DNA of 64,000 nucleotides, from the NCBI RefSeq assembly GCF_045037415.1, contig NZ_CP173439.1; one strand, 5' to 3'. Made by a program: the position numbers and the translations under genes. A model generated the notes under the pieces. That model was not told where the DNA came from. It searched no databases and saw nothing but the letters and a program-made list of their open reading frames with translations. Of the stretch, positions 1 to 23,290 are shown in pieces. The stretch comes from Escherichia coli. Its GTDB lineage: Bacteria; Pseudomonadota; Gammaproteobacteria; Enterobacterales; Enterobacteriaceae. Numbering within the stretch: position 1 is the stretch's first letter; each line of letters opens with the position of its first letter.

Positions 1-317
1 CTACCGGGGAGGAAGGAAAGTACCGGATGGAAAGAGTCCCCACTAAAGCAGACTGACAGACATCACAAATCCCCGGGAGGGGACTTGTGTATAAGAGACA
101 GCTCAGATACAGGGAAAGTGCAGAATGGCAACTATGATGTCTGGCGGCAATGCGAGTTCACCGGAACGATACATAGATTCTGTTTACCTCTCTCTCAACG
201 AGTTTAGTCTCCAGGATTCCCGGGGCGGTTCAGTCTGGCGACTCATCCTAATCATGCCTGTTTCCCATCCAACGGGAAAACCTGGGGTATTTCCCATATA
301 CTGGCCAGAGCATTTTC

Positions 318-1124
318 TCAGGATAATTGTTTCAGCATCACAACCGCATCAGATTCCGGCATCGCAAACTGCACCCGGTGCCGTGCAGCCACATCCAGCG
401 CAAACACCTTCGTGTAGACCTCCGTTGAGCTGATGGACTTATGCCCCATCAGGCTCTGCAGGACCTTCAGCGGTATACCGGCATACAGCATGTGCATCGC
501 ATAGGAATGGCGGAACGTATGTGGCGTGATCGGGACAGAGAACGTCACACCATCAGCGGCAGCGGCGGCAACCGCTTCCCCAATCCAGGTCCTGACCGTT
601 CTGTCCGTCACTTCCCAGATCCGCGCTTTCTCTGTCCTGCCTGTTCGTTTATTACGCCGTTCCATGGGGATTTTCAGTGTTGCCACCATCGTCTGCAGCT
701 GGCTGACGTACCAGGAGTCGGAGAGCGGGACCAGCCGGTGAGTCTGCTGACCGGCTGGCATTCTTCCTGCCGTCCTGGCGGCTTTTTCGGTCCGTTGTTT
801 CAGGGTCGCAAGCTGCACAAACGGATACGGAGGCGTGAGCGAAAAATCCCCCCGCGTCAGCGCTAGTGCTTCATTAATACGCGCGCCGGTGTTCCACAGA
901 GTGGCCAGCAGCATCTTGCGGCGCAGATCCGGGACATAATGAAGCAGGGCACTCACCTCGGGAGCCAGCAGATATTTCGGCAGTTCATCATGAACCATCG
1001 ACATCTGGCGGAGTGCCAGAGCTGCCGGATAATCAATGGCAACAGGAAGTTGTGCAGACTGTCCGGCAGAATACACTGCCGGTACCATGGCTGCAGACTG
1101 GCTGTGTATAACGGAGCCTGACAT
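318..1124 (-). CDS. resD: ResD tyrosine site-specific recombinase (F-plasmid D protein, multimer resolution)
   Basis: 268-aa ORF; translation matches F-plasmid ResD as recalled (MSGSVIHSQSAAMVPAVYS..., HxxR/Y recombinase C-terminus); sits directly downstream of ccdB as in F. Confidence 0.85.
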   Translation of the reverse strand: MSGSVIHSQSAAMVPAVYSAGQSAQLPVAIDYPAALALRQMSMVHDELPKYLLAPEVSALLHYVPDLRRKMLLATLWNTGARINEALALTRGDFSLTPPYPFVQLATLKQRTEKAARTAGRMPAGQQTHRLVPLSDSWYVSQLQTMVATLKIPMERRNKRTGRTEKARIWEVTDRTVRTWIGEAVAAAAADGVTFSVPITPHTFRHSYAMHMLYAGIPLKVLQSLMGHKSISSTEVYTKVFALDVAARHRVQFAMPESDAVVMLKQLS

Positions 1125-1650
<526 letters not shown>

Positions 1651-2244
1651 AATGCACCTCATCTTACATACTCTCTGTACACCATTAAGTATACACCAGT
1701 ATTACGCTATAACATGCCTCCGGCAACGGAATATTGTTATCCAGCTATTATTAACACCACCATCAATAACTGACCTGAAAAGTAATCATGACAATAATAA
1801 CCTGCAATGTAGTAACCATGATAAATTACAGGATGACTGTTTTTCTATGATCCGATTTTTATCGGATTCAGGATTTTCCGGAAGTGAATCAGGATCAGTG
1901 AATAAGCGAAGCGATCTTTTCTGCCGCTGATGACTGGCTCGGGAACACGGGAAGAAACACAACATACAGTGTCATGTCAGCGGAGCGGGACACCACATCC
2001 TGTGAAAGCGGACCAGCGGGCGGCAGCGAAGGATCCGCGGATCCGGAACCACCAGAAACCGGATCTGCGTGATGAGAAAAGAGTAGTAGATATGATTTTA
2101 TATAAAAAACATAAAACCATACCAGGCGTGATGTTTGTCATAATATATAAATTCATACCTGATATGATATTTACCAAAGTAGAGATAAATTATTCGCTGT
2201 ATGATTTTACCTATTAATGCACATAATCAAATGGAGCATGCAGG

Positions 2245-2514
2245 ATGGATGAAAAAGTATACTTTCGCCTCAGCTATGAAACGATGACCGGCGATACGGA
2301 AGACTTCATTAACGCATGTATTGAACGGGCAAACCGTGCGGACTGCAACGATACCGATGCGGAGATTGCCCGCGCACGCAGCACCATTGAACTCTGGTAC
2401 TGTCTGGCACTCGCGGGGCGTGCCCCAGACGACGTCGCCGACAGGGATCATCTGCGGTTCACCGAAATGCTCCTGCGCGCCCCGACAGCAGAACAACGCG
2501 CATGTCAGCTGTAA
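2245..2514 (+). CDS. hypothetical protein (high-GC gene)
   Basis: 89-aa ORF divergent from ccdA; noticeably GC-rich relative to neighbours; no recognisable family. Confidence 0.35.
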   Translation: MDEKVYFRLSYETMTGDTEDFINACIERANRADCNDTDAEIARARSTIELWYCLALAGRAPDDVADRDHLRFTEMLLRAPTAEQRACQL

Positions 2515-3098
2515 CCTCCCGTGGGCCGTCGCCGCTGCAACGACGGGTGCTGATTGTGCTGGCTGCCCTTGATGAAAAACGGCCTGGCCCCGTGCTGACT
2601 CGGGACATAGAACGGGTGCTGGAGCGAAGCGGGGAAGCCCCGGTCTACGGACCAAACCTGCGCGCCTCCTGCCGGCGCATGGAAGCATCAGGCTGGCTTC
2701 GCACACTGCGCGCCCCGAATCTGCAGCTGGCTGTCGAACTGACGGACGCCGGCCGGGCCGTGGCACAGCCTCTGCTGCTGGCAGAACAGGACCGCCTCCG
2801 GGCAAAACAGCGCGCGGCAGAAGTCGTCGTACTGCCGCTGGTCCCGGCATCAGGTCTGCCCGCAGACGGCACTTCTGCCACTGATCTGGCGGTGGAGCTG
2901 AACGGCATGACGTATCAGGCCTGCCGTGGGGATTTTGTGGTACGTCTCGACGGCAGCACCTGTCTGCAGTTATGGAACAGAGAAGGCAAGGTGGTACGCC
3001 GGGAGGGCGATCCGCTGGAAGTGGCGCAGTGGCTGCAGGCCTGTCATGATGCCGGAATAAAAGTTCGTGTACAGGTTAATGAAAGTATCACCCCGTAA
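2502..3098 (+). CDS. hypothetical protein, possible winged-helix N-terminus
   Basis: 198-aa ORF overlapping the upstream ORF end; N-terminal LQRRVLIVLAALDE...VLTRDIERVLE resembles a DNA-binding fold; GC-rich. Confidence 0.45.
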   Translation: MSAVTSRGPSPLQRRVLIVLAALDEKRPGPVLTRDIERVLERSGEAPVYGPNLRASCRRMEASGWLRTLRAPNLQLAVELTDAGRAVAQPLLLAEQDRLRAKQRAAEVVVLPLVPASGLPADGTSATDLAVELNGMTYQACRGDFVVRLDGSTCLQLWNREGKVVRREGDPLEVAQWLQACHDAGIKVRVQVNESITP

Positions 3099-3165
3099 AA
3101 ACATGCCTGCACGATTCACACATCATCCCATGGTGGCAGCCGGTTAACTTTCCTGCACCACCAGT
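3075..3165. repeat. Inverted-repeat copy A (~90 bp) bounding the AT-rich lasso island; partner at 9035..9125
   Basis: Reverse complement of 9035..9125 matches this stretch with a few mismatches (shared ...ccccgtaaaaacatgcctgcacg...catcccatggtggcagccggttaactttcctgc...). Confidence 0.6.
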
Positions 3166-3463
3166 GGAAAGAGGCCATGAGCAGTCCGAACAAAAAACCA
3201 CCCGTGATACTTATAATAATGGCCTCACCGGCCACCATTCCTGACGGCCCCCAGTAGATAAACCACATTGCACATCCCCAGGAAATGCCCCATAAGCCCC
3301 CCGTCAGCACCGTGACCTGCCAGAACGGCATAAAGGGTAATGGCGGAAGCCGGATCCCCAGCCGCCAGAGAATACGCAGAAGAGGAGGGGCATAATTGCT
3401 CCGCCACATCTTTTTGCTGTCCATCAGGGCAATGGCCCGGGCTTTTTTCTGCTCAAAAGTCAC
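3116..3463 (-). CDS. hypothetical small membrane protein
   Basis: 115-aa ORF with hydrophobic helices (LWGISWGCAMWFIYW, IIISITGGFLFGLLMASF); its last ~17 codons are duplicated in inverted orientation near 9040..9090. Confidence 0.5.
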   Translation of the reverse strand: MTFEQKKARAIALMDSKKMWRSNYAPPLLRILWRLGIRLPPLPFMPFWQVTVLTGGLWGISWGCAMWFIYWGPSGMVAGEAIIISITGGFLFGLLMASFHWWCRKVNRLPPWDDV

Positions 3464-3573
3464 AGGAGTACCTCCGTTCCATGATGTAAACGTGACACAG
3501 TTTATTGTTATTGATTATTATTATCATTATGTTATCACGCACCAGTACACGATGACAATAAAGGAGAAACCAG

Positions 3574-3921
3574 ATGAAAGCGGATATATCTGTAAAGTAT
3601 TTTCTGAAAAGCCTGATACCAGGTTTCATTATTCTTACAGTTTTTTATCTGGGATGGAAAGATAACCAGGAAAATTCAAGAATGTTTTATGCGTTCATCG
3701 GATGCATTATCAGCTCCATTACTTTTCCTTTTTCAATGAAGATAATACAGAAAATGGTAATAAGGTTTACAGGGAAAGAAGTCTGGCAAAAAGACTTCTT
3801 TACTAATCCAGTTGGCGGAAGCTTAACTGTAATATTTGAATTATTCTGTTTCGTTATATCAGTTCCTGTAGTTGCCATTTACTTAATATTTATATTCTGC
3901 AAAACCCTTTCAGGAAAATGA
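3574..3921 (+). CDS. small polytopic membrane protein, unknown function (first gene of the AT-rich island)
   Basis: 115-aa ORF with about three hydrophobic segments; AT-rich codon usage like the lasso genes downstream. Confidence 0.5.
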   Translation: MKADISVKYFLKSLIPGFIILTVFYLGWKDNQENSRMFYAFIGCIISSITFPFSMKIIQKMVIRFTGKEVWQKDFFTNPVGGSLTVIFELFCFVISVPVVAIYLIFIFCKTLSGK

Positions 3922-4456
3922 AAGGGCATCATTATATGTCAGATACCAATAAGTTTATTGTTCTGCTCAATAAACTTATCATTAACAAGCGCACTCACAG
4001 CAGCCATAATAATTGCAAAACCCAGAATACCTACAAGGGTCCCCGGCATGACGGAAAACGTCCATGCGGTAACAGATGAAGTAGCTCTTCCTGCTGCCAG
4101 TGATTCAAGTTTTACAAAAAATGGACGCCAGTTATCTGTCCAGACAACCTTACCAAACTCAGTGCTCCAGTCAGCAAAATCGTTGCCTTCAGTACACCGT
4201 GTTTTCTCTTCAGCTCTCTTCTGGTTGATGTCGGCAAGCTGGCAACAAAAATTCTCTTTTTACGTCAAGAACGTCATTTGCATGTTTTTACTCATTTGTT
4301 CTGGCACTGACGTTATTTCTCGCCGAATTTACCGCAGATTCAGCAAAGGTGATTTTATTGTAACTGCAACACCTACCAGATGACGGAAAACGGGTGAACG
4401 GATTAGAGTACGATTTTTCCATTTCGTGATCTTCACCTCAGAACCCCACCATTGAT

Positions 4457-4475
4457 GATAAAAATGATTATCATT
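4457..4475 (+). promoter_or_regulatory. Fur-box-like sequence next to the precursor promoter
   Basis: gataaaaatgattatcatt matches about 13 of 19 positions of the Fur consensus GATAATGATAATCATTATC; inner tgattatcatt is one mismatch from tgataatcatt. Confidence 0.3.
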
Positions 4476-4479
4476 CGCA

Positions 4480-4507
4480 TTGACACTTTGAAATAAGTAG
4501 TTATATT
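4480..4507 (+). promoter_or_regulatory. putative sigma-70 promoter of the lasso precursor gene
   Basis: TTGACA (4480..4485), 16-bp spacer, TATATT (4502..4507); about 70 bp upstream of the precursor ATG, which has an AAGGA Shine-Dalgarno. Confidence 0.35.
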
Positions 4508-4576
4508 TTTCATGGTTATTGAGCAATTGGTAACCAATGTAGGTTGTAGGTGTTTCATTTTCATTAAGGAATATGT

Positions 4577-4765
4577 ATGAAAAAACAATCTAAAGAAGTG
4601 AAAACCTCTGGCTCTGAACATCGTGAAATTATGATAGAAATTGATGCCTCTAAATCGACGAACGGTACCGGTGGAGGCTCCATCATTGAAGGGTCATACA
4701 CTGTCTATCGCTGCGATGGCGGAAGTGTCCCCTCGCGTCCTTTTGGCCCCCCATTCTGTCCTTAA
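4577..4765 (+). CDS. putative lasso-peptide precursor (A gene)
   Basis: 62-aa ORF MKKQSKEVKTSGSEHREIMIEIDASKSTNGTGGGSIIEGSYTVYRCDGGSVPSRPFGPPFCP; good SD; immediately upstream of the cyclase; Thr near the leader end, Gly-rich core start, Glu at a ring-forming distance, aromatic and Cys residues in the tail. Confidence 0.6.
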   Translation: MKKQSKEVKTSGSEHREIMIEIDASKSTNGTGGGSIIEGSYTVYRCDGGSVPSRPFGPPFCP

Positions 4766-4892
4766 ATTTAAAGGCTGGTCATGATTGAAATATTCACTTC
4801 TCTCAAACGAAAGCAATGAATCCGATAATACAGGTATATTCGATAAAAAGGACGTCTTTTGTGGCGTCCTTACCTTAAGGAGATTATTACGA

Positions 4893-6281
4893 ATGTCTTT
4901 GGGGGATAAATTTACATCTGGATACCGTGGGATTAATGCCTTCAATAGTGGCGTGATAAAACTTCTTGTTGCCAGAGAAAATGACTGGATTGAAGAAAAA
5001 CTTAGTGCCATTTTAACTCAATCACCTCGTATTGATTTCGAACCACTCATTGCGAGTATAGTTTTTGGGCGTACTGAGGGGAAAACTTCATTATTTAAAA
5101 ATGTGGAATGTATTGTTCCTGGTTGCAGTTTTAAAATTGACCACACGCACAATGGTGCATCCGTAAGTGAATATATTGACTGGAATGCAATTTCATATAA
5201 GACATTACCGCACGACCCGGCAGAGATTCTTTTTCAGTCTGTATCTGAAGTCGTCAACAGAAATCAAGGCGGATACTTTGTTGTGCGCCTGTCTGGTGGC
5301 ATGGACTCTACTGGCATTCTTCTCTCACTAATGGAGGCAGTTGATGTAAGCAGAATTATTGCCATAACTTATCGGTACCTTATGGGGACAAGCAATCAAG
5401 ATGAAGTATCAGCAAGGTATTTATGTAAAATATTTGGAATCAGGCAAATAATAATTGATTTTGAACCTCATTCATTATTTCATAGGCTTCCTTCACCAGT
5501 GCCTCCTGTTCTAAATATGAGAACAATAAATTTTAAAGTTTATGAAGAGGAAAGAAAGCGTATCGGAAGTATCTGTGGAGATAATTATACCCTGTTTGAT
5601 GGGCATGGGGGGGACCATGTATTTTGTGAGAAAATCCCGTTTGGAATAATAAAAGAGTTATTTTTCCATGGGAGTTTGTTAACCTCATGCCGTAAGTTAT
5701 TACAGATAGCTCGCCTTCATGGCATAAATATGAAAGATGTCTTATTAATGCATACTAATAGTATGCATTATCTTATAACTGAAGCACAGTGTTATTTTTC
5801 CAAAGATGTTATAAAAAACCTTCACTATGACAGAAAAACAGTAAGTGAAGAAAGAAAGTCAGCCCTTCAGGAGGCTATTCTTGATAATGGGACGAGCCTG
5901 ACGCTGAGTCTTACGGAAAACGATATATTCCCTTTTACAGACCAGAGGATGATAGGCTATGGTCTGAAACTCAGAGTTGAGGAGTCATTTGATACTACAT
6001 CAAAACGATTTCAATACAGAAAAGCGATTAATGACAGATATAAATTTGTATTTACCAGAAAAGATAAGGGGCATATAACAGGTGCATATCAGTCGGCCCT
6101 TAGTGTTAATAAGGACCGTGTTATTAATCTTCTGCGCCATGGGCAGTTCGCGACACACGGTTTGTTAAACTTGGAGGGGGTAGAGCGAGCAATAGAAACA
6201 AGTTCTCATGGCATCGGTGGAGTCAGTTTTATTCTTATGAAATTAATTGCTGCAGAACTTATCTTTGAAGGATATTTATAA
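4893..6281 (+). CDS. lasso-peptide cyclase (asparagine synthetase B-like, C protein)
   Basis: ORF 4785..6281 with the likely start at ATG 4893 (AAGGAG SD); PP-loop ATP pyrophosphatase motif VVRLSGGMDSTGIL; size like McjC; stop overlaps the next start (TAATG). Confidence 0.75.
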   Translation: MSLGDKFTSGYRGINAFNSGVIKLLVARENDWIEEKLSAILTQSPRIDFEPLIASIVFGRTEGKTSLFKNVECIVPGCSFKIDHTHNGASVSEYIDWNAISYKTLPHDPAEILFQSVSEVVNRNQGGYFVVRLSGGMDSTGILLSLMEAVDVSRIIAITYRYLMGTSNQDEVSARYLCKIFGIRQIIIDFEPHSLFHRLPSPVPPVLNMRTINFKVYEEERKRIGSICGDNYTLFDGHGGDHVFCEKIPFGIIKELFFHGSLLTSCRKLLQIARLHGINMKDVLLMHTNSMHYLITEAQCYFSKDVIKNLHYDRKTVSEERKSALQEAILDNGTSLTLSLTENDIFPFTDQRMIGYGLKLRVEESFDTTSKRFQYRKAINDRYKFVFTRKDKGHITGAYQSALSVNKDRVINLLRHGQFATHGLLNLEGVERAIETSSHGIGGVSFILMKLIAAELIFEGYL

Positions 6282-6964
6282 TGACTTCATTCTACTTTAA
6301 GCCGAATATACATCATGTCAATATTAATAATGAAATAACTATCCTTGATGAGATATCTGATCGTTATATCCTTCTTTCAGAAAAGCAATCAATTCTCTTA
6401 AAAGAGTATATGAGTGATGGTTCTCATAATTATGTCGGTGATACAATGAACCTGGAAGGTATAATTTCTAAGGAGTCGGGTACTCCTTTGGCAAAGAGTA
6501 CTCCGTCTCCTCAGGGGGTTGGTATATTGACCTGGAACAGTTATGTCAGCACTCGGTTGGGTATTGCCAGTTTTTTTTATATCTCTGAAGCAATAATGAG
6601 AATGATTCTTGTCCGAAAACGTCTCCAGTCAAAGGGTTTTCACCATTGCCTTGAGCATTGTCGTTGTGCGCTTAGCCAGAAGAGTTTTCCGTACATTTCC
6701 CTGAAAGATAAATTAATTATTGGGCAGAAGTTGAGCCAGAGTATTAAAATTGCGGCACCGTTTATCCCGGGCAAGGTTAAATGCCTTGAGTTTTCACTTG
6801 TTTTGTTCGACATGTTAGTGTCAAGAAAAATCAGTCCCACATTATTTATTGGATTCCAGCGCTATGATTTTCTTTCTCATGCATGGCTGGAAATTGATAA
6901 TGAAGTGGTTGCAGACCAAGATAACCTGAAAACAAAACTTACACCAATAATTAGAGTGGGATAA
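6281..6964 (+). CDS. lasso-peptide leader peptidase (transglutaminase-like Cys protease, B protein)
   Basis: 227 aa; candidate Cys...His...Asp triad (KVKCLEF ... LSHAWLEIDNE) with spacing like McjB; translationally coupled on both sides. Confidence 0.7.
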   Translation: MTSFYFKPNIHHVNINNEITILDEISDRYILLSEKQSILLKEYMSDGSHNYVGDTMNLEGIISKESGTPLAKSTPSPQGVGILTWNSYVSTRLGIASFFYISEAIMRMILVRKRLQSKGFHHCLEHCRCALSQKSFPYISLKDKLIIGQKLSQSIKIAAPFIPGKVKCLEFSLVLFDMLVSRKISPTLFIGFQRYDFLSHAWLEIDNEVVADQDNLKTKLTPIIRVG

Positions 6965-8688
6965 TGAAAATAAAAAATGTCATTTGTGAATTAAAATCAG
7001 GGGCAAGTGCTTACTCTTCGGCCTACAAGCTCATACGCTCACTGTATCCCGCATTCACATTTTCTTTTATCGGTGTGTCCATTCTCTTTATTCTGGCTTC
7101 GGTTCTTGGTGCATTACTTCCTTATCTGCTCAAAAAGACAGCGGAGGCGTATACTTTCTCTGAAGGGATATTATCTGCATTTTTCCTGATCACAATGACC
7201 TACGCCGTCAGCTGGACAGTGACCGAAGTACTGAAGAATATCAGAGGCATTTTTTCTGCGGGAATTCTGGCACAAGCAGATGCAGCACTAACCAGTAACA
7301 CGATGGAGATTTTACTTTCTATTAGTTTCCGGAAACAAAAGGAATTTGAGCCGGCGGTCCTGGCTGCAAATATTGATCGTGGCGCGCAATCATTCAGTGC
7401 GCTGACATTATCTGTTTTCTGGACACTACTCCCAATTACTGTAGAAATCAGTATGGCTGTTTATTTTCTTTATCAGAGTCTGGGTTTTACTTATTCACTT
7501 ATTTTCTCAATTTCTGTTATAGGTATGATTTTTCTTGCCTTCAGCATAGCGATCTTTAGTCGTCATATCCATACCGATATAATGAATACTCAGAATGGGG
7601 TGTATTCTTATACGATTGAGCGACTTGCCATGCCGTTGGATATCCGAATTAATTCAGCTCATGCAAAAGAAAGAGTTCTTCGCCAGGAAATTCTTAATCA
7701 GTATGTTAATACAATTAAGCTGACCAATAAAAAAATGGGCTTTTTACTGTCACTACAGGCAGTAGCTGTAGGCGTATTGCTTGCTATATCCGTACTGGTT
7801 CTGGTTTTTTTTAAAAAAGCGTCTCATATTGGAACTGGTGACTTTATTATGATTGTGGGCTATATTAGCATGCTAACATTTCAGTTGCGCACAATAGCCG
7901 GAGCCAGCATTGACATTCAACGCCAGATTGTGTACCTGAAAATTCTTCTGGAATATAACAGTATGCATCCCGAAGGGGTTATCCCTGATACAGTAAGCTC
8001 CCGCAGCACTGAGCGTATTTTTGATGTGCGTAATCTTGGAGCTTTTGCTGACGGCAGACTCCTCTTTAATAATGTGAGCTTCAGGATCCATGAAGGTGAA
8101 ATGTTTGCACTTTCTGCGCCTTCAGGTTTTGGTAAATCCACAATTCTGCAATATTTACTCGGTCTTGATACCCCAACTGAGGGCGATATTTATTTCCGAG
8201 GATACCGGATTAACACAGAGTTGAGTGCGTCTATCCTGGAGGACGTTGCTGTTGTGCCTCAAAAAGCCGTTCTGGTGCAGGGAACTATTCGTGATAATAT
8301 TCTGTATGGAACCGATGACATTCTTCCCGATGATGAACTGTTTTGCATCCTGAATTCATTGGGGTTAATTAAAGAGGACTGCGGAGAACATTTCCTTGCT
8401 TTCCTAGACCGGGATATTAATCCTCTGGGTAGTGGTTTGAGTGGTGGAGAGATCCAGCGATTATGCATAGCCCGCGCCCTAGCCCGTAAGAAAAAGATTA
8501 TCGTACTTGATGAACCCACGGCCTCTATTGGCGAAGAACTCGCGATAAAGATCATTACCTATATCCGGCAGCATTGCCCTACCGTTATTATTACAACTCA
8601 TAATCCACGAATTCTGGAGCTCGCCGATCATTTTTTTGATGGTATGTCAAAGTCTTGCGTCATTGCTGGAGAAGGCAGAGACCAATAA
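6964..8688 (+). CDS. ABC exporter (fused permease-ATPase, McjD-like export/immunity, D protein)
   Basis: 574 aa; N-terminal multi-TM domain; Walker A APSGFGKST, signature LSGGEIQR, Walker B IIVLDEPT. Confidence 0.85.
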   Translation: MKIKNVICELKSGASAYSSAYKLIRSLYPAFTFSFIGVSILFILASVLGALLPYLLKKTAEAYTFSEGILSAFFLITMTYAVSWTVTEVLKNIRGIFSAGILAQADAALTSNTMEILLSISFRKQKEFEPAVLAANIDRGAQSFSALTLSVFWTLLPITVEISMAVYFLYQSLGFTYSLIFSISVIGMIFLAFSIAIFSRHIHTDIMNTQNGVYSYTIERLAMPLDIRINSAHAKERVLRQEILNQYVNTIKLTNKKMGFLLSLQAVAVGVLLAISVLVLVFFKKASHIGTGDFIMIVGYISMLTFQLRTIAGASIDIQRQIVYLKILLEYNSMHPEGVIPDTVSSRSTERIFDVRNLGAFADGRLLFNNVSFRIHEGEMFALSAPSGFGKSTILQYLLGLDTPTEGDIYFRGYRINTELSASILEDVAVVPQKAVLVQGTIRDNILYGTDDILPDDELFCILNSLGLIKEDCGEHFLAFLDRDINPLGSGLSGGEIQRLCIARALARKKKIIVLDEPTASIGEELAIKIITYIRQHCPTVIITTHNPRILELADHFFDGMSKSCVIAGEGRDQ

Positions 8689-8712
8689 ACCACACACGTT
8701 AATTCATTTATA

Positions 8713-8980
8713 TCTAATCGGGGTTGTACGCCGGAAACGCCGAAATTTCCGATACAGCGAATTTGTTGATTTTTGAAGCATGTTTGGCAGGTTTTGACGT
8801 GTACGTTTATGGTGCAGTAAGTGAGAATTTATTCGTACCAGCCATATGATACGTTACGGGCAGTGATTTTTCGCGCTAGACAGCTATTTCTTTGCTGTCC
8901 GGTTAACTGTGGTCTTACGTACAGGTTGCCGAGCATAAAATTTGTGCCTCCCGGAAATTTCGGCGTTTCCGGCGTACAAC
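8713..8980. mobile_element. miniature inverted-repeat element (~268 bp) with 32-bp perfect terminal IRs beginning GGGG
   Basis: GGGGTTGTACGCCGGAAACGCCGAAATTTCCG at 8713..8744 and its exact reverse complement at 8949..8980; no ORF between. Confidence 0.45.
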
Positions 8981-9034
8981 CCCAAATAAATTCAATTAAT
9001 TACCTAAACAAGGTGAGACTTTTAGAGGAAATGA

Positions 9035-9465: not shown

Positions 9466-9852
9466 CTAATTTAGAATAATGGCTTTAAGATGGTCAGAAA
9501 CCATCTTCCAGTTATATTCTCCTGTTGCAGCATTCAAAGCGATAATTTGCATTTCATCAAACGAAATACGTGAACTAATAATATGTACACCATTCCGTTT
9601 TAAAAAAACCTGTGCAACAAACAAGGCTGTTCGCTTATTTGCATCGTTGAAAATGTGACCACGAGCAATAGCAACTAAATACACGGCAGCCAGATCCATA
9701 ATATCTGTCACACCTTCATAATGATACATGTTCAAAACACGATGAATGATCGCGTCAGCGCGACCGGGTTCTGGCATACCCGCCACGCCACCATCACGCG
9801 AAATCAAGCGGTCATGAAACTCAATCACTTCCTGTGAACTAACGAATTTCAT
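9466..9852 (-). CDS. doc: Doc toxin (Fic/Doc family)
   Basis: 128 aa with the Doc motif HIFNDANKRTA; overall similar to P1 Doc as recalled; overlaps the phd stop. Confidence 0.8.
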   Translation of the reverse strand: MKFVSSQEVIEFHDRLISRDGGVAGMPEPGRADAIIHRVLNMYHYEGVTDIMDLAAVYLVAIARGHIFNDANKRTALFVAQVFLKRNGVHIISSRISFDEMQIIALNAATGEYNWKMVSDHLKAIILN

Positions 9853-10073
9853 CGCTTAGAAAGCTCCGTATAGGCCGTCCCATGACTTTGCATGATCTCA
9901 GCAAACTCAGCATCAAGAGCCGCTTTACGGTATCGTTCAAAAGCGTCTTTATCAACTAGTACAGCCGCGCCACCTTTACGGCGCTGAATCTCAACAGGCT
10001 GATTTTCATCAACCGCCAGCTCGAGCAACGAGGCCAGGTTATCGCGAGCATGGCTATAGTTACATGTAAACAT
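9849..10073 (-). CDS. phd: Phd antitoxin (Phd/YefM family)
   Basis: From internal Met: MFTCNYSHARDNLASLLELAVDENQPVEIQRRKGGAAVLVDKDAFERYRKAALDAEFAEI..., close to P1 Phd. Confidence 0.75.
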   Translation of the reverse strand: MFTCNYSHARDNLASLLELAVDENQPVEIQRRKGGAAVLVDKDAFERYRKAALDAEFAEIMQSHGTAYTELSKR

Positions 10074-10090
10074 AGTGCTTCCTCTTTGAG

Positions 10091-10111
10091 TTGTACAATT
10101 AAATTGTACAA
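10091..10111. promoter_or_regulatory. putative phd-doc operator: two TTGTACAA palindromes
   Basis: ttgtacaattaaattgtacaa about 20 bp upstream of the phd start; each 8-mer is self-complementary. Confidence 0.35.
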
Positions 10112-10260
10112 CAGTTCTGTTCAATATGAAATCACCGTAGTAAGGGGGGCGTGCCCATTTCCTCTAAAAGTCTCACCTTTATTATGTAATTAATTGAGTT
10201 TATTTAGAAAATGTTGCAATTTTAGCATCATTTTTTATTGTTCTTTTTAACCTGAAGTAG

Positions 10261-10357: not shown

Positions 10358-12327
<1,970 letters not shown>

Positions 12328-13153
12328 GTTGATGTCCTTTCTGGTGTGAGAACCTTAAGGAAACAACATGTTGGGTGGAGCGGACAATCCAAATGGTGAA
12401 TTACCGTCTTATATCACTGGCGCTGACACGGCGTAGAACCCCGAGAAAACGAGAGCATGAAAACCCCCAGGACAGTCACTGAATGGGGGACCAGCAGCGG
12501 TAAAATAACCGACATAATTTCATAATGATGCCTCCGTTAGTTATGAAGGTTTGCGGGCTGACTATACTGTTGGTGCCTGAGCAGAACTGAAGGATTGAGC
12601 GTGTTTCTGATGGAGAGTTCCACAGGTATCCACGAGATTGATTATGCCACCAGAAACACGCTCGGATGCGTTTTAACGTTACTTTTACTGGCAGGCAAGG
12701 TTTCTTTGTTTTATTTGTATTCTGACTCTCAGAATGACTCTGTTCGCTCCATAAATATTAAAATTATCAGGTAGAAGAACTCTCTTTTGTACAACTTAAC
12801 TGTGTCTTTATGGAAATGTTGTAAAGGTTCTTTTCTTTAGCTGTATCGTATTTAAATATACTTTTCTGTAAGTGGAATCTTTGCATAAGATAATAAAAAA
12901 CAGCAAATTATATTAATGGTTATGATATCCTGGGAACACCTGATTAACTAATAAGTTATTTTAATAAAAACATCTGCACTGGCAAATAATTGTACCCCCT
13001 TCAATAGGAATATTCTTATTTAATGGCCTTGTTTATATTCTAAAAATAAAACTGAGAAACTCATCATATATTTGGTAAGAAAACGCACCGGTGAACACTA
13101 TCATGAGGCTATACTGCACTTCCTCAAATTGGGATATTATGATGCATTGATTC

Positions 13154-13903
13154 ATGAAAAAGAGTATACGCAATTACAACGCATTATGGATTGTCTGGTT
13201 ATTATGGGTTACAGCTATATTATATTTTATGCTAGGCAGTCATCGTGATGGTTTTCCCAATGATGTTATTGTTATACATATAATATATCTGCTATCATTA
13301 ATAATGATTGTGTTTTTCATAATAAAAAAGGTTTATGCAATTACTATGTTTAAAAGTAAGAAAAAGCCAGTATCAACACCACAAAGTTCTTCACAGAATT
13401 TAACTGAAGTTGAACACTCTCCGGAGTTACCTTCTTTATCCGGGACGCTTTGTACCACAAACTTACCAGGATCACTAAAGGAAATGAAAGATTGTTTTAT
13501 TTCGAATGACACTTCATTTAACGGAACTTTCAAATGCGGTGGTAATATAATTATTGAGGGGCATGTTGAGGGCGATGTTATTTGTGATAATCTTGTTAAA
13601 ATTGAGAGTGGGGGGTACATCAGAGGGGAGGTTCGTGGTCAGCAAGTGCTGATCAATGGAAAAGTCGAAGGCAAATGTTATGCTGCTAGATTGTCTGTCT
13701 TGTCTAAAGGCATTATGTATGGAGATATTTTTTCTGACGAAATTTCAATTGAAAAAGGGGGGAGTTTTATCGGGTGTTCACAATTAATGGATCCGTCATC
13801 AACAAAAATAGAACATGCAATTGAGGAGAACGATACTGATAGCGAGTTATTTATAACTGATATTCAGTCAACGCTTATACCTGAAGATAACTCGATAAAG
13901 TAA
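13154..13903 (+). CDS. membrane-anchored bactofilin-domain protein
   Basis: 249 aa; two N-terminal hydrophobic helices, then bactofilin-like beta-helix repeats (GGNIIIEGHVEGDVICDNLVKIESGGYIRGEVRGQQVLINGKVEGK...IEKGGSFIG). Confidence 0.5.
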   Translation: MKKSIRNYNALWIVWLLWVTAILYFMLGSHRDGFPNDVIVIHIIYLLSLIMIVFFIIKKVYAITMFKSKKKPVSTPQSSSQNLTEVEHSPELPSLSGTLCTTNLPGSLKEMKDCFISNDTSFNGTFKCGGNIIIEGHVEGDVICDNLVKIESGGYIRGEVRGQQVLINGKVEGKCYAARLSVLSKGIMYGDIFSDEISIEKGGSFIGCSQLMDPSSTKIEHAIEENDTDSELFITDIQSTLIPEDNSIK

Positions 13904-14056
13904 ACATCGGCTTCATAAATTATCGGTATTCATTCGATAGTTTATAGGAGGAAAATACAGGGTTTATATCCCTGTATCTATTCTTATCTGAATTGTCAGT
14001 GTTGCCATATCAAATACGGATATAATAAACAGGAACTTACGAAAACAATAACTGAT

Positions 14057-14434
14057 ATGACTTCACGGCTATTTCTGAAAGCTAATATCAGGAGTCTTAG
14101 TCAAATGAATTTATACTTAAGATTAAAACAGGTGGATTTATCATTAGGTAAATGGATTGATGGAAAAGACAAGATTAGTCAATTAATAATACTTAACACG
14201 ATGAGGATCCTGTTATTTACTGTTTGCATTTATATCATTGGGTTCGTTGATTTTAATTTCTACCATATAGCTGAAAATATTATATCTAATATATACAGAA
14301 TAGATATTTACATTGTTCATGGCATAATGATAATGCCACTATTAGCTATATCTGCATTCTTCATGTTTAGTGTTTCATTTATATTCTATTATTTATTAAA
14401 GAGATGTTTTATGTTGTGCTATCCAAAAAAATAA
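14057..14434 (+). CDS. hypothetical small membrane protein
   Basis: 125-aa AT-rich ORF with hydrophobic segments; no recognisable family. Confidence 0.3.
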   Translation: MTSRLFLKANIRSLSQMNLYLRLKQVDLSLGKWIDGKDKISQLIILNTMRILLFTVCIYIIGFVDFNFYHIAENIISNIYRIDIYIVHGIMIMPLLAISAFFMFSVSFIFYYLLKRCFMLCYPKK

Positions 14435-14588
14435 TCTGTCAGCAGGCCGCAATAGTTTCTGTCGTATTTGAAACTTGATGGTATGCCTGCGATCAATGCC
14501 AACCCCTGCCAGTTTTTTCGGCACAGGAGCTACCCGGTGAAATGCAATAGCACTCAGCTTACGTGAGAGCTATTGCATATAACATTAT

Positions 14589-15191
14589 TTAAAATGAATA
14601 GCGTACTTTTAAGTTCAGCTCATTATCGATATTGTATTTACCGCCAAATGAACGCTCATAGTCGATGCCAACACGGGTGTTTTTGCCAAGCTCAAATGCA
14701 AGGCGAGCTCCAACAAGTACTCGGCTGTCATGCCCGAATTTGACGGTTGTCTCGTTATAAGCATCACTGAGAATAGTTTGATTATCATTCAATATATCAA
14801 ACTGGTAACTTGTGTCTATCTTTGCTACTATTGACCAGTCCTTACCAGTGAGTTTTCTGGCAAAATCAACACCAGTACGACCGACAAGTACATTATAATC
14901 CTTGTTATCAATAACGGTTTGATTAGCCAGATTTTGTTTACTACCTCCAATCCGTCCATAAGTAAGTTCAAACTGAGACTCAATAAACATTTCATTACTC
15001 AGTCCCCAGCGATATCCTATTTCAGCGTCTGCATAATATGAATTTGTGCTGAAGTTCTCTTTGTCTCTTGGACTTAAATAGCTATAAACGTTTGTTGAAT
15101 GGATGTATTTAGCGATAAAATCAGTATAAAAACCGTTATCAAAGAAGATGGACGTATACCCACCCAGACCATAGCTTTTAGTATCGCCATA
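14589..15191 (-). pseudogene. autotransporter beta-barrel domain, 3' fragment (ends ...LNLKVRYSF)
   Basis: Translation continues upstream of the annotated Met without a start and is cut by the IS911 end at 15192; C-terminal aromatic residue typical of outer-membrane beta-barrels; 5' part found at 43915..44477. Confidence 0.6.
15067..15191. repeat. 125-bp direct repeat copy A (partner 43915..44039), internal to the split autotransporter gene
   Basis: Identical stretch cttggacttaaatagctataaacg...agtatcgccata found at both positions. Confidence 0.75.
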
Positions 15192-15508
15192 TGAAGTGGC
15201 ACACTGAATTTGGCCACCTGAACAGAGGTGATATGCTCACCTCAGAACAACACAGGTGCTCCAATGAAAAAAAGAAATTTCAGCGCAGAGTTTAAACGCG
15301 AATCCGCTCAACTGGTTGTTGACCAGAACTACACGGTGGCAGATGCCGCCAAAGCTATGGATATCGGCCTTTCCACAATGACAAGATGGGTCAAACAACT
15401 GCGTGATGAGCGTCAGGGCAAAACACCAAAAGCCTCTCCGATAACACCAGAACAAATCGAAATACGTGAGCTGAGGAAAAAGCTACAACGCATTGAAATG
15501 GAGAATGA
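15192..15508 (+). mobile_element. IS911 left-end fragment (IS3 family), cut by IS30
   Basis: Begins TGAAGTGGCACACTG; OrfA reads [53 protein letters not shown]...IEMENEIL, then diverges into the IS30 end. Confidence 0.6.
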
Positions 15509-15545
15509 AATATTAATTCAATTGGTCAACGCAACAGTTATGTGA
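15264..15545 (+). pseudogene. IS911 OrfA, C-terminally truncated/altered
   Basis: About 93 OrfA-like residues, then a foreign tail ([11 protein letters not shown]) read from IS30 sequence. Confidence 0.6.
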
Positions 15546-16233
15546 AAACATGGGGTTGCGGAGGTTTTTTGAATGAGACGAACATTTACAGCAGAGGAAA
15601 AAGCCTCTGTTTTTGAACTATGGAAGAACGGAACAGGCTTCAGTGAAATAGCGAATATCCTGGGTTCAAAACCCGGAACGATCTTCACTATGTTAAGGGA
15701 TACTGGCGGCATAAAACCCCATGAGCGTAAGCGGGCTGTAGCTCACCTGACACTGTCTGAGCGCGAGGAGATACGAGCTGGTTTGTCAGCCAACATAAGC
15801 ATTCGTGCGATAGCTACTGCGCTGAATCGCAGTCCTTCGACGATCTCACGTGAAGTTCAGCGTAATCGGGGCAGACGCTATTACAAAGCTGTTGATGCTA
15901 ATAACCGAGCCAACAGAATGGCGAAAAGGCCAAAACCGTGCTTACTGGATCAAAATTTACCATTGCGAAAGCTTGTTCTGGAAAAGCTGGAGATGAAATG
16001 GTCTCCAGAGCAAATATCAGGATGGTTAAGGCGAACAAAACCACGTCAAAAAACGCTGCGAATATCACCTGAGACAATTTATAAAACGCTGTACTTTCGT
16101 AGCCGTGAAGCGCTACACCACCTGAATATACAGCATCTGCGACGGTCGCATAGCCTTCGCCATGGCAGGCGTCATACCCGCAAAGGCGAAAGAGGTACGA
16201 TTAACATAGTGAACGGAACACCAATTCACCGAG
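15509..16233 (+). mobile_element. IS30 fragment (left end and 5' two-thirds of the transposase)
   Basis: ATTCAATTGGTCAACGCAACAGTTATGTG end sequence; transposase matches IS30 InsI for ~220 aa, then diverges after ...NGTPIH. Confidence 0.7.
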
Positions 16234-16283
16234 TAGGCAGCCTGGCGGCTGCGGCTTGTCATGGCCTGAAATTACCGTTATAA
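15573..16283 (+). pseudogene. IS30 transposase, 3'-truncated
   Basis: MRRTFTAEEKASVFELWKNGTGFSEIANILGSKPGTIFTMLRDTGGIKPHERKRAVAHLTLSEREEIRAGLS... matches IS30 transposase N-terminus; tail is junction-derived. Confidence 0.75.
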
Positions 16284-16317
16284 AAACAGACAATATCATT
16301 GTCTTTCAGGTAGTTAT

Positions 16318-16683
16318 ATGTCCCGTTCAGCTAAACCCCGTAAACGAAAACCTGCCCCTCAAAGAAGCAAACTTCCCCGCTATGTCGTGAAGCTTCACGA
16401 CGATGACTTCTTTGACGAAGAAGACGCAGAAGCTCTGCGCTTTGATAATTTTGACGATGCCGTTGAGTGCTGCGCAGACCTGAATATTCCCTTCTTTGTG
16501 GATGCCGGAAACAAAAAGCTGGTCTTCTGGTTTGTACGTGTTGATGACGAAGGGTATCCTGAAATAGCCCGCTGCACGGAGCGGGAGTTTGCGACCATTC
16601 TTGCCGGTATCAGCGCCGGCGGCATGTACTGCCCGGAGTGTGGCACGGTTCACTGGCCGGACGGAGTCCCCCCGCCCTTCTGA
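16318..16683 (+). CDS. IS91 ORF121
   Basis: 121-aa ORF immediately upstream of and overlapping the IS91-family transposase. Confidence 0.65.
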   Translation: MSRSAKPRKRKPAPQRSKLPRYVVKLHDDDFFDEEDAEALRFDNFDDAVECCADLNIPFFVDAGNKKLVFWFVRVDDEGYPEIARCTEREFATILAGISAGGMYCPECGTVHWPDGVPPPF

Positions 16684-17870: not shown

Positions 17871-18063
17871 GAGCCGCATCGGAGAAGTTGCGTCCATTTT
17901 CAGGGGAATGGGGTAAAAAACCATCAGTGATATACAGTATCAATCGATAAGATCCATTTAATTGACGGCGGTGCACTCATGGCACGCAGGCAGTGTTGAA
18001 TAAACATCCGTTTTTGGGTGTTTTTTTAATCTTTTTGGGATTTAAATTCCTATCGATGAACAG

Positions 18064-18330
18064 AGATGAGGACCTTCCATCATGGGCTTCGAGGCGGGCA
18101 CGCCACGCTTTTTCAGCCAGTTCATTATCGAACAGGCTTGCCAGATTCAGTAGCAGCGGGTAACGAAAGGGGGTCCAGTAGGCAACCCTGGGCACTGCAG
18201 GATTCATCCCCTGATCGAAGAACGAAATAATGGCGTGATCCCGTTTAACGACCTGCCAGACATCAAACCGTATCCGGTGCTTCTTCTGCAGGACAAGCAG
18301 CGTATCAACCACCTCATCAAGGCGGTGCAT
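18064..18330 (-). pseudogene. N-terminal fragment of an unknown gene truncated by IS91
   Basis: ORF 17977..18330 runs into IS91 sequence; only ~89 codons lie outside the IS. Confidence 0.3.
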
Positions 18331-18361
18331 GCCAAGCTCTGCGGCGTGCAGACGCTGTACT

Positions 18362-18385
18362 TGTCAACGCCACGATCTTTGACCG
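18362..18385. repeat. solo IS21-like terminal repeat remnant
   Basis: TGTCAACGCCACGATCTTTGACCG matches the first 23 bp of the IS21-like copies with one mismatch, then diverges. Confidence 0.4.
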
Positions 18386-19117
18386 TCTTATATCGACAGA
18401 GTTATCCGGCATGGTGTCAATCCGTTCACAATTTTTCCATCGGAGCAGCCTACCACCGGTGATAACCAGACTTTGCCTGTAGTTTGTATACACAATCCCT
18501 GGCATTGAAACACGCATATGAGGTGTACTTCGGAATATGACCGTGCGCTCAGGAAGTACGGCAGATTCCGTCAAAAATTACCTGTAAAGACAGACTTCAG
18601 AAAAAACAGTGCTCGCCGCAGACCGGTGACCGGGCGAAGCCCGCGAACCGGCGAGGAAGCGCAATATATCTGTAGTTACAGTGAGCAGGTACGCCCTGAA
18701 GCCCTTATAAGCGGTTGTGTATGCTGTTTCCCTGGGATGATTTATCCACATATCCGGAGGCTCGATCCAGTAAACAGATCCATGAATGATCAACAAAGGA
18801 TCCATTAAAGATCCCCATATCGCTGCAAACCTTGTCACTCATGGGCCGGGACCACGATCACATAAGCTGTGGCATGTTACTGATAAACAGTAACATGCTA
18901 ATGATAAGCTGTATTCAGTAATCCATATACTGAAGTAAGTTAATGACATAAACTATGGTCAGTACGCCAGACTCAGTTGTTAAATACAGGCTGCAGGTTT
19001 TTCTTCAGTCAGTTAGCGGAGTTCTGACACACGATTTTCTGTTTATTCTTTTACTGTCCACAGGCTGGAGGCTTTCTGGAAAACGAAAATTCAGACATCA
19101 AAAAACTGTTCGGCGAG

Positions 19118-20095: not shown

Positions 20096-20099
20096 ATAT

Positions 20100-20370: not shown

Positions 20371-20379
20371 CGTATGCCG

Positions 20380-23038: not shown

Positions 23039-23290
<252 letters not shown>

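What the first reader, a model, noticed from the sequence alone, without database searches (positions are those of the whole stretch)
4457..8688. Complete-looking lasso-peptide (microcin J25-type) gene cluster on an IncF plasmid backbone
Four co-directional, tightly packed genes: a 62-aa precursor; a cyclase with the PP-loop motif SGGMDS (asparagine-synthetase-like); a ~227-aa protein with a Cys/His/Asp arrangement like the McjB leader peptidase; and a fused ABC exporter with Walker A/B and signature motifs. The cyclase-peptidase-exporter genes overlap by one nucleotide at each junction (TAATG), implying translational coupling. Gene order is A-C-B-D rather than the MccJ25 layout, and the precursor core does not match MccJ25, microcin Y, klebsidin or citrocin as I recall them. 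I cannot exclude that it corresponds to a recently described peptide.
Basis: partly seen in the sequence, partly recalled or inferred. Interest (0 to 1): 0.92.

Follow-up and report, generated by a model that had tools for sequence, protein, structure and literature searches.

The report
Uncharacterised plasmid-borne lasso peptide cluster
This E. coli plasmid carries an intact four-gene cluster that very probably makes and exports a knotted "lasso" peptide antibiotic; it is a distant, apparently unstudied relative of microcin J25, and the type of system is well known.

Summary
Window 4577-8688 carries four co-directional genes:
- a 62-aa precursor
- a 462-aa asparagine-synthetase-like cyclase (true start ATG 4893, not the mechanical TTG 4785)
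- a 227-aa fused leader-binding/cysteine-protease B protein
- a 574-aa ABC exporter

Both TAATG overlaps are real. Profile comparison links C and B to McjC and McjB (98.8% and 97.9% probability). All catalytic residues align and are invariant or nearly so in the family.

Thirteen precursors from Escherichia, Salmonella, Klebsiella, Pantoea, Pseudomonas, Cupriavidus and Aidingimonas share Gly1, Gly5 and Glu9, usually with Thr at -2. This predicts a Gly1-Glu9 nine-residue ring. The E. coli core is 33 residues long, with two tail cysteines.

All three compared genes are under purifying selection (omega 0.12-0.18). The module is intact in this window. It occurs whole in 23 of 5,426 complete E. coli genomes, always on plasmids (IncF or IncK2/Z where typed).

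Every source calls the precursor "hypothetical", and nine literature searches found no description.

Verdict: a new, divergent member of a known kind (short cyclase, A-C-B-D order, probable disulfide-looped tail). Product, lasso topology and antibacterial activity are inferred, not shown.

The parts
4480..4507 (+). Promoter-like site: TTGACA, 16 nt spacer, TATATT (11 of 12 consensus matches), about 70 nt upstream of the precursor ATG.
   Evidence: Best-scoring site in the scan. Both hexamers are conserved in the 87%-identical Salmonella salamae copy. The conserved DNA module shared with that copy begins at about 4462.
4577..4765 (+). Precursor gene A (62 aa). Predicted leader is residues 1-29, ending ...KSTN with Thr at -2. 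Predicted core is 33 aa: GTGGGSIIEGSYTVYRCDGGSVPSRPFGPPFCP, with a Gly1-Glu9 ring and Cys17/Cys32 in the tail.
   Evidence: ORF, annotated as WP_000744815.1 hypothetical protein. Omega is 0.117 against S. salamae. The family alignment shows Gly1 and Glu9 invariant. The exact sequence is found on at least 1000 public contigs, never with a name.
4848..4871 (+). Hairpin in the A-C spacer (9-bp stem, 6-nt loop), just upstream of the Shine-Dalgarno sequence of C. Likely a transcript-stabilising or partial-termination element that sets the precursor:enzyme ratio (inferred).
   Evidence: Present in both the MFE and centroid structures. Nearly every family member examined has a strong hairpin of unrelated sequence in the same spacer. 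The spacer as a whole does not fold better than shuffles (z = -0.56).
4893..6281 (+). Gene C: 462-aa short-form lasso cyclase, an ATP-dependent macrolactam synthetase with PP-loop SGGMDS at residues 134-139 and GHGGDH at 237-242.
   Evidence: Pfam Asn_synthase E = 1.8e-4. NCBIfam macrolactam cyclase model 56 bits, below its cutoff of 300. AlphaFold model pLDDT 89.7. Foldseek hits to TsnB9, carbapenam synthetase, beta-lactam synthetase and AsnB at probability 1.0. hhalign to McjC 98.8%.
6281..6964 (+). Gene B: 227-aa fused B1(RRE)-B2 leader peptidase with Cys168/His200/Asp212. Its start overlaps the stop codon of C (TAATG).
   Evidence: NF033537 lasso_biosyn_B2 82.4 bits, cutoff 33. PF13471 E = 2.7e-16. 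hhalign to McjB 97.9% over residues 17-225. Triad conserved: Cys168 and His200 invariant, Asp212 in at least 90% of sequences. The model N-terminus is three strands plus helices, and the best small-domain Foldseek hits are lasso RREs TbiB1 and 6jx3.
6964..8688 (+). Gene D: 574-aa ABC half-transporter (N-terminal TMD, C-terminal NBD). Presumed exporter and self-immunity pump. Its start overlaps the stop codon of B (TAATG).
   Evidence: Many NCBIfam ABC exporter models match. 24% identity to McjD over 501 aa, E = 2e-25. The closest solved TMD is the Atm1 type.

Best explanation
This is a functional lasso-peptide biosynthesis and export operon.

Proposed mechanism:
1. Transcription starts at the promoter at about 4480.
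2. The 62-aa precursor is made in excess, helped by the hairpin after its gene.
3. The N-terminal RRE-like domain of B binds the leader.
4. The Cys168/His200/Asp212 protease of B cuts after Asn29, with Thr at -2, exposing Gly1.
5. C adenylates the Glu9 side chain through its PP-loop and joins it to the Gly1 amine. This closes a nine-residue macrolactam around the tail.
6. Conserved bulky residues Tyr12, Tyr15 and Arg16 act as plugs.
7. D exports the 33-residue product. This probably also protects the producer.
8. Cys17 and Cys32 probably form a tail disulfide after export.
9. The peptide most likely acts as a narrow-spectrum antibacterial (a microcin) that helps plasmid-bearing cells compete.

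Shown here: gene content, homology, catalytic residues, precursor motif, purifying selection and mobility.

Inferred: cleavage site, ring, threading, disulfide, export/immunity and antibacterial activity.
For: - B passes the curated lasso B2 threshold. It aligns over its full length to McjB with the triad at identical spacing.
- C has the AsnB / beta-lactam-synthetase fold. It is homologous to McjC, and the equivalents of S199/D203/D302 are invariant.
- A profile built from the C family reaches canonical cyclases of about 590 aa.
- Thirteen precursors from seven genera keep Gly1, Gly5 and Glu9, mostly with Thr at -2.
- Pro at position 3 in P. citronellolis excludes a ring starting at residue 3.
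- Omega against S. salamae is 0.117 for A, 0.162 for C and 0.182 for B.
- The A-C-B-D order with overlapping or near-abutting C/B and B/D junctions is conserved.
- A hairpin follows the precursor gene in nearly every member examined.
- The promoter is conserved.
- An exporter is linked to the cluster, as in mcjD.
- The module moves between IncF and IncK2/Z plasmids with an identical precursor.
Against: - No product or activity data exist.
- C scores far below the curated cyclase cutoffs: 19 bits against 525, and 56 against 300. It is about 50 to 130 residues shorter than canonical cyclases.
- Foldseek support for B is weak (best E = 0.06).
- Some copies elsewhere are decayed: C is truncated in pVR50B, and C and B are split in pEco118UIb.
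- Most of the roughly 108 other matching E. coli genomes, judging from the sampled rows, keep only a 540-bp 3' remnant.
- The TMD of D is not specifically McjD-like, so an immunity role is argued by analogy only.
- A few relatives have Ile rather than Thr at -2.
Confidence: 0.8

Rival explanations
1. The cluster is a silent or decaying relic carried passively on plasmids and no longer makes a mature peptide.
For: - Disrupted copies exist: C is truncated in pVR50B, C and B are split in pEco118UIb, an IS5 is inserted in NZ_CP103975, and D is frameshifted in S. salamae.
- Most of the roughly 108 other matching genomes, judging from the sampled rows, keep only the last 540 bp of D, next to an IS3.
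- The module is flanked by IS and Tn3 debris.
Against: - All four ORFs are intact in this window and in many other plasmids.
- Omega of 0.12-0.18 on A, C and B shows long-term purifying selection.
- The promoter, Shine-Dalgarno sequences and stop/start overlaps are preserved.
- The identical precursor occurs on at least 1000 contigs.
Confidence: 0.08
2. The enzymes are active, but either the product is not a threaded lasso (for example a branched-cyclic macrolactam) or its role is not antibacterial (signalling, metal binding or receptor antagonism).
For: - C belongs to a short, divergent clade whose best curated match is the albusnodin/ikarugamycin macrolactam-cyclase model, not the lasso cyclase model.
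- From general knowledge, many lasso peptides have no known antibacterial activity.
- Nothing in the sequence identifies a target.
Against: - The complete B(RRE+protease)/C/precursor logic, and the Gly1/Glu9/Thr(-2) pattern, match threaded lasso systems.
- Conserved aromatic and basic residues follow the ring at plug-like positions 12, 15 and 16.
- From general knowledge, a dedicated ABC exporter in proteobacterial lasso clusters goes with antibacterial peptides such as MccJ25 and capistruin.
Confidence: 0.1
3. The 62-aa ORF is not the substrate. The true precursor lies elsewhere, or the enzymes act on another peptide.
For: NCBIfam has no model that hits the ORF, and all sources call it hypothetical.
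Against: - A homologous small ORF with the same G-x3-G-x3-E motif lies immediately upstream of the biosynthetic genes in all 13 loci examined, across seven genera.
- It has the lowest omega in the cluster.
- It has its own Shine-Dalgarno sequence and a downstream hairpin.
Confidence: 0.02

Closest known systems
Microcin J25 system (mcjABCD; E. coli plasmids such as pTUC100)
   Same: - Plasmid-borne in E. coli.
- Fused B1-B2 protease with an identical triad and spacing.
- AsnB-like cyclase with the same PP-loop and GHGGDH motifs.
- Dedicated ABC half-transporter.
- Gly1 and Thr(-2) in the precursor.
- Similar prevalence in PLSDB: 43 records for mcjA against 23 full-length records here.
   Different: - Only 23% identity for C, 37% over the last 62 aa for B, and 24% for D.
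- Predicted 9-residue Gly1-Glu9 ring rather than the 8-residue Gly1-Glu8 ring.
- 33-aa core with two Cys, against 21 aa with none.
- Co-directional A-C-B-D order, whereas mcjA is divergent from mcjBCD.
- C is about 50 aa shorter.
- The TMD of D is not detectably McjD-like by phmmer.
- No core sequence similarity, so the target and uptake route cannot be carried over.
Other proteobacterial ABCD-type antibacterial lasso peptides (capistruin, klebsidin, citrocin, ubonodin, microcin Y, cloacaenodin). This comparison rests on my own knowledge.
   Same: Four-gene logic with an exporter. Gly-rich ring with a hydrophobic pair before the ring-closing Glu (..SIIE here; ..KIIE in citrocin and ..PIIE in klebsidin, as I recall them).
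   Different: The recalled peptides have 8-residue rings followed by Tyr/Phe-Phe. Here the ring has 9 residues and is followed by Gly-Ser-Tyr. The gene order is C before B. No direct sequence comparison was possible with the tools.
Astexin/caulosegnin-type proteobacterial clusters with A-C-B order (my own knowledge; a literature search found no open-access confirmation).
   Same: C precedes B. Nine-residue rings closed on Glu/Asp9 are common in that group.
   Different: As I recall, those clusters carry an isopeptidase and TonB-dependent receptor genes instead of an ABC exporter, and are not known to be antibacterial. Here an exporter follows B directly.
Class IV lasso peptide LP2006 and class III BI-32169 (single-disulfide lasso peptides from actinobacteria; my own knowledge).
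   Same: Exactly two Cys in the core. In the E. coli peptide both are in the tail (Cys17, Cys32), as in class IV. In the Pseudomonas relatives one is in the ring (Cys6) and one in the tail, as in class III.
   Different: Proteobacterial origin and a much larger predicted disulfide loop (16 residues). The disulfide is only inferred. Cys-free minimal relatives exist.

Membership tests
Lasso peptide (RiPP) biosynthetic gene cluster | Precursor with a leader and a core that starts with a small residue (Gly/Ala/Ser/Cys) and has Asp/Glu at core position 7-9. | tested here: met
   The core is GTGGGSIIE... Gly1 and Glu9 are invariant in 13 family precursors.
Lasso peptide (RiPP) biosynthetic gene cluster | Thr at the penultimate leader position (-2). 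| tested here: met
   The leader ends ...K-S-T-N before Gly1 in E. coli. Thr is at -2 in most relatives and Ile in some Pseudomonas and Aidingimonas members. An Ile(-2) variant is documented in the literature (title of PMC10368454).
Lasso peptide (RiPP) biosynthetic gene cluster | B2 transglutaminase-like cysteine protease with a Cys-His-Asp triad. | tested here: met
   NF033537 82.4 bits, cutoff 33. PF13471 E = 2.7e-16. C168/H200/D212 align to McjB C150/H182/D194.
Lasso peptide (RiPP) biosynthetic gene cluster | Leader-binding RRE (B1), either fused or separate. | tested here: met
   hhalign to fused McjB runs from residue 17 to 225. The model has three beta-strands plus helices at residues 10-58. 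Foldseek finds TbiB1 (probability 0.93, E = 0.06) and 6jx3 B1. Support is moderate.
Lasso peptide (RiPP) biosynthetic gene cluster | AsnB-like ATP-dependent cyclase with a PP-loop (SGGxDS) and a Mg-binding Asp. | tested here: met
   Fold match to AsnB, beta-lactam synthetase and carbapenam synthetase at probability 1.0. hhalign to McjC 98.8%. S134/D138/D241 are invariant.
Lasso peptide (RiPP) biosynthetic gene cluster | Score above the curated NCBIfam cyclase thresholds (NF033535 or NF033561). | tested here: not met
   19 bits against a cutoff of 525, and 56.5 bits against a cutoff of 300. The cyclase belongs to a divergent short clade that is not covered by these narrow models. Canonical cyclases of about 590 aa reached by the family profile also fall below the cutoffs.
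Lasso peptide (RiPP) biosynthetic gene cluster | Mature product is a threaded macrolactam. | not testable with these tools
   Needs MS/NMR and protease or thermal stability assays.
Microcin J25-type (class I microcin, RNAP inhibitor taken up through FhuA/SbmA) | Core related to MccJ25: 8-residue Gly1-Glu8 ring, 21 aa. | tested here: not met
   No core similarity. The predicted ring has 9 residues and the core is 33 aa. The enzymes are only 23-37% identical locally.
Microcin J25-type (class I microcin, RNAP inhibitor taken up through FhuA/SbmA) | Antibacterial activity, with immunity conferred by the D exporter. | not testable with these tools
   D is an ABC exporter homologous to McjD at 24% identity. 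The TMD is not specifically McjD-like.
Class IV (tail-tail disulfide) lasso peptides | One disulfide between two tail cysteines. | not testable with these tools
   Exactly two Cys, at core positions 17 and 32, both in the tail. The two-Cys count recurs in 10 of 13 relatives at varying positions. Oxidation state is unknown.

The most novel reading that the evidence does not exclude
The module encodes a genuinely undescribed lasso microcin, the founder of a separate proteobacterial lasso family. The family would be defined by a short cyclase, C-before-B order with an exporter, and a conserved 16-residue 'ring plus plug' unit (G-x3-G-x-h-h-E-G-x-Ar-x-V-Ar-R). Onto this unit a variable, disulfide-closed C-terminal loop is grafted, which could specify the receptor or the target. 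If so, E. coli clinical and animal plasmids have been carrying a second or third lasso antibiotic with a new target or uptake route, about half as common as MccJ25.
Probability: 0.45. Interest if true: 0.65.

Novelty: new member of a known kind. Interest (0 to 1): 0.5.

Why it matters
Few lasso microcins from Enterobacteriaceae have been characterised. From my own knowledge these are MccJ25 and microcin Y, plus klebsidin, citrocin and cloacaenodin. They are valued as narrow-spectrum anti-Gram-negative leads and as engineering scaffolds.

This module is compact (4.3 kb) and native to E. coli, so it should be easy to express. It is found in human clinical, poultry, pig and environmental isolates.

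If active, it would add a new scaffold: a 9-residue ring with a long disulfide-looped tail. It could also help explain competition between strains that carry IncF or IncK plasmids.

The short cyclase clade could help define the minimal lasso cyclase. The natural series runs from Cys-free cores of 16-20 aa to disulfide-bearing cores of about 25-33 aa. That series is a ready-made structure-function set.

Tried and rejected
- **Literature.** Nine searches found no description of this peptide. They used accessions and core strings; lasso/microcin/plasmid terms; and ACB cluster order. The library holds open-access papers only, so this is absence of evidence.
- **Sequence search of solved structures.** phmmer found nothing for B and only noise for C, so I used structure prediction instead.
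- **D as 'McjD-type'.** The TMD alone finds Atm1-type exporters, and McjD is not among the hits at E <= 1. Only a pairwise BLAST shows 24% identity. I therefore describe D as analogous to McjD, not as a member of its subfamily.
- **TTG 4785 as the start of C.** Rejected in favour of ATG 4893, which has a Shine-Dalgarno sequence, is the RefSeq start, and is where the family alignment begins.
- **Alternative rings.** Rings starting at residue 2 or 3 were rejected. The -2 position would then not be Thr, and P. citronellolis has Pro at position 3.
- **Upstream colicin-immunity gene and colicin fragment as part of the system.** Rejected. They are absent next to the module in IncK2/Z plasmids and in the Salmonella, Klebsiella and Pseudomonas relatives.
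- **A-C spacer as a structured RNA overall.** Its folding energy is not better than shuffles (z = -0.56). Only the local hairpin is conserved as a feature.
- **Foldseek for B.** It gave no significant hit (best E = 0.06). I treat it only as consistent, not as proof.

Full report
**1. Observation**

The + strand of window 4457-8688 holds four tightly packed ORFs:
- A, 4577-4765 (62 aa)
- C, mechanical ORF 4785-6281
- B, 6281-6964 (227 aa)
- D, 6964-8688 (574 aa)

The sequence shows TAATG at 6279-6283 and 6962-6966. The stop codons of C and B therefore overlap the next ATG by one base.

C most likely starts at ATG 4893, not at TTG 4785. An AAGGAG Shine-Dalgarno sequence lies 7 nt upstream of that ATG, RefSeq uses it (WP_001554924.1, 462 aa), and the family alignment begins there.

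The best promoter-like site in the region is TTGACA-16-TATATT at 4480-4507, about 70 nt before A. It is conserved in a Salmonella copy that is 87% identical.

**2. What the proteins are**

*B.*
- It scores 82.4 bits on the NCBIfam lasso B2 model, whose cutoff is 33, and hits Pfam Transglut_core3 at 2.7e-16.
- I retrieved mcjABCD from an E. coli plasmid for direct comparison. B aligns to McjB over nearly its whole length (hhalign 97.9%, residues 17-225 against 11-207).
- Cys168/His200/Asp212 fall on McjB Cys150/His182/Asp194 with identical 32- and 12-residue spacing. That McjB triad is known to me from the literature.
- Cys168 and His200 are invariant and Asp212 nearly invariant in 12 homologues.
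- The AlphaFold model (pLDDT 87.9) has an N-terminal unit of three strands plus helices, followed by a helical and beta-sheet protease domain.
- Foldseek hits are weak (best E = 0.06) but point the right way: lasso RREs TbiB1 and 6jx3 for the N-terminus, and transglutaminase-like cysteine proteases for the C-terminus.

*C.*
- It is very divergent. Pfam Asn_synthase gives only E = 1.8e-4. The curated cyclase models fall far below cutoff (19 against 525, and 56 against 300 bits). phmmer finds no solved structure.
- The model is nonetheless confident (pLDDT 89.7). It matches TsnB9, carbapenam synthetase, beta-lactam synthetase and E. coli AsnB at probability 1.0 over about 420-520 columns.
- A 15-sequence family profile aligns to McjC at 98.8% probability.
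- In the BLASTP alignment, McjC S199/D203 (PP-loop) and D302 (GHGGDH) correspond to S134/D138/D241. All three are invariant in the family.
- A profile search of 1.84 billion representatives finds about 40 short (roughly 430-530 aa) relatives above 200 bits. After those come proteins mostly of 530-610 aa, and the five sampled have lasso/macrolactam cyclase as their best curated match.
- C is therefore a short-form branch of the lasso cyclases.

*D.*
- It has Walker A, signature and Walker B motifs and hits many ABC exporter models.
- It is 24% identical to McjD over 501 aa (E = 2e-25).
- Its TMD alone finds Atm1-type exporters and not McjD.

**3. The precursor and its family**

Homologues of C and B are rare: 30 and 20 clusters at 90% identity, and six loci in a pattern-limited scan of the 100,044 species-representative genomes. 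They occur in:
- Salmonella
- Klebsiella
- Enterobacter (B homologue only; its locus could not be retrieved)
- Pantoea
- Pseudomonas
- Cupriavidus
- Aidingimonas

In every locus examined, a small ORF lies just upstream of the biosynthetic genes. The 13 precursors share these features:
- Pattern: hydrophobic-alternating leader, then A-[ST]-x-x-[TI]-[NRK] | G-x-x-x-G-x-h-h-E-G-x-Ar-x-[VI]-Ar-[RKH].
- Gly1, Gly5 and Glu9 are invariant.
- Thr is at -2 in most.

Only a Gly1-Glu9 nine-residue ring fits all members. P. citronellolis has Pro at position 3, which excludes a shorter ring.

Two relatives have minimal, Cys-free cores: P. citronellolis GNPGGVFLEGTFFVRK (16 aa) and Aidingimonas GTGGGAIIEGTYAVYRDPWS (20 aa). 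The first ~16 residues therefore look like the lasso unit proper.

The other ten have a variable C-terminal extension with exactly two Cys:
- In E. coli these are Cys17 and Cys32, both in the tail.
- In several Pseudomonas they are Cys6 (ring) and Cys19 (tail).

This suggests a disulfide, but nothing here shows it.

The A-C-B-D order holds in Enterobacteriaceae, Pseudomonas and Cupriavidus, and is A-B-D-C in Aidingimonas. In Pantoea the exporter gene appears split. Nearly every member examined has a strong hairpin of unrelated sequence after the precursor gene. This fits control of the precursor:enzyme ratio.

**4. Selection, distribution and mobility**

- Against the S. salamae copy (dS about 0.4), omega is 0.117 for A, 0.162 for C and 0.182 for B.
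- The whole module is present at 99.4% identity or better in 22 PLSDB plasmids, plus the 87%-identical Salmonella copy.
- It is present whole in 23 of 5,426 complete E. coli genomes, always on plasmids.
- mcjA, for comparison, is in 43 PLSDB records.
- Host plasmids are IncF (FIA/FIB/FIC/FII) and IncK2/Z.
- In an IncK2/Z plasmid the module abuts a Tn3-family transposase fragment. In the window a 280-bp element with 40-bp GGGG-initiated inverted repeats follows D.
- The exact precursor sequence is found on at least 1000 public contigs. Every source calls it hypothetical or uncharacterised.
- Some copies are damaged. Most of the roughly 108 other matching genomes, judging from the sampled rows, keep only the last 540 bp of D next to an IS3.
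- The copy in the window is intact.

**5. Mechanism (inferred by homology)**

1. The RRE of B binds the leader.
2. The protease of B cleaves after Asn29.
3. C adenylates Glu9 and closes the Gly1-Glu9 lactam around the tail.
4. Tyr12, Tyr15 and Arg16 act as plugs.
5. D exports the peptide and probably confers immunity.
6. Cys17-Cys32 is oxidised outside the cytoplasm.

From general knowledge, an exporter in a proteobacterial lasso cluster goes with antibacterial peptides. A microcin role is therefore the most likely one, but the target and uptake route cannot be inferred.

**6. Comparison and novelty**

The cluster works like mcjABCD but is not MccJ25-type in the narrow sense. It differs in ring size, core, gene layout, a shorter cyclase and an exporter TMD that is not McjD-like.

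From memory, no known lasso core resembles GTGGGSIIEG. Nine searches of the literature library (open-access papers, author manuscripts not searched), including exact strings and accession numbers, found nothing. RefSeq already labels B as a lasso B2 protein, so the cluster type is visible to annotation pipelines.

I classify it as a new, divergent member of a known kind. It is of moderate interest and cheap to test.

Noticed in passing
window 3574-3921 (+) and 3939-4229 (-): An intact colicin-E1-family immunity gene (115 aa) sits next to a 96-aa C-terminal fragment of a pore-forming colicin. The missing 5' part of the colicin gene would lie where the lasso module now begins. This is an orphan immunity gene with a colicin remnant, and it is not co-conserved with the lasso module.
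   Followed up: partly
window 8712-8991: A 280-bp element bounded by 40-bp inverted repeats (93% complementary) lies 24 nt after the stop codon of D. In the IncK2/Z plasmids the match to the module ends at about window 8719, near the start of its left repeat (~8716). From memory, the GGGG-initiated repeats (GGGGTTGTACGCCGGAAACGCC...) resemble Tn3-family terminal repeats. It looks like a miniature Tn3-derived element marking the right edge of the mobile module.
   Followed up: partly
window 1125-1650 (by collinearity with pVR50B); L003 3497-4022; L010 1-369: ccdA/ccdB lies a few kb upstream of the lasso cluster in the E. coli IncF plasmids. The same is true upstream of the Salmonella and Klebsiella relatives, which are only about 50% identical. 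This suggests a long-standing position next to the F-type maintenance region.
   Followed up: partly
window 9466-10124 (-): A Doc toxin (128 aa) and a Phd/YefM antitoxin pair lie immediately downstream of the module. Relatives have other toxin-antitoxin pairs in the same place: ParDE in Salmonella L003, and RelE/MqsA-like in L011.
   Followed up: no
window 12428-28848: A 16-kb segment absent from the otherwise collinear pVR50B. It is bracketed by two IS21 copies (10358-12327 and 28909-30878). It carries IS30, IS91, IS2 and IS66 transposase genes, a tyrosine recombinase, and a TonB-dependent haem/haemoglobin receptor (25351-27321).
   Followed up: partly
E. coli plasmids outside the window (matching window 8212-8750): Of the roughly 108 complete E. 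coli genomes that match the module but lack it whole, most (judging from the sampled rows; many from poultry, pigs and humans) keep only the last 540 bp of gene D abutting an IS3-family transposase. This is a widespread scar of an ancestral lasso module.
   Followed up: partly
L018/L020 (Aidingimonas) 221-4577; L017 (P. citronellolis) about 3040-3160: Minimal family members have Cys-free cores of 16-20 aa. In Aidingimonas the genes are rearranged to A-B-D-C, with a longer (about 555-aa) cyclase. These could be useful natural 'minimal' comparators.
   Followed up: partly
window about 36471-41801 (mapped from pVR50B by collinearity): A ChaN-like lipoprotein, a TonB homologue, a TonB-dependent receptor and senB/tieB lie here. 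This is the cjrABC-senB virulence region typical of pUTI89-like ExPEC plasmids. A plasmid-encoded TonB/receptor pair near a lasso cluster could bear on uptake or immunity. This was not examined.
   Followed up: no
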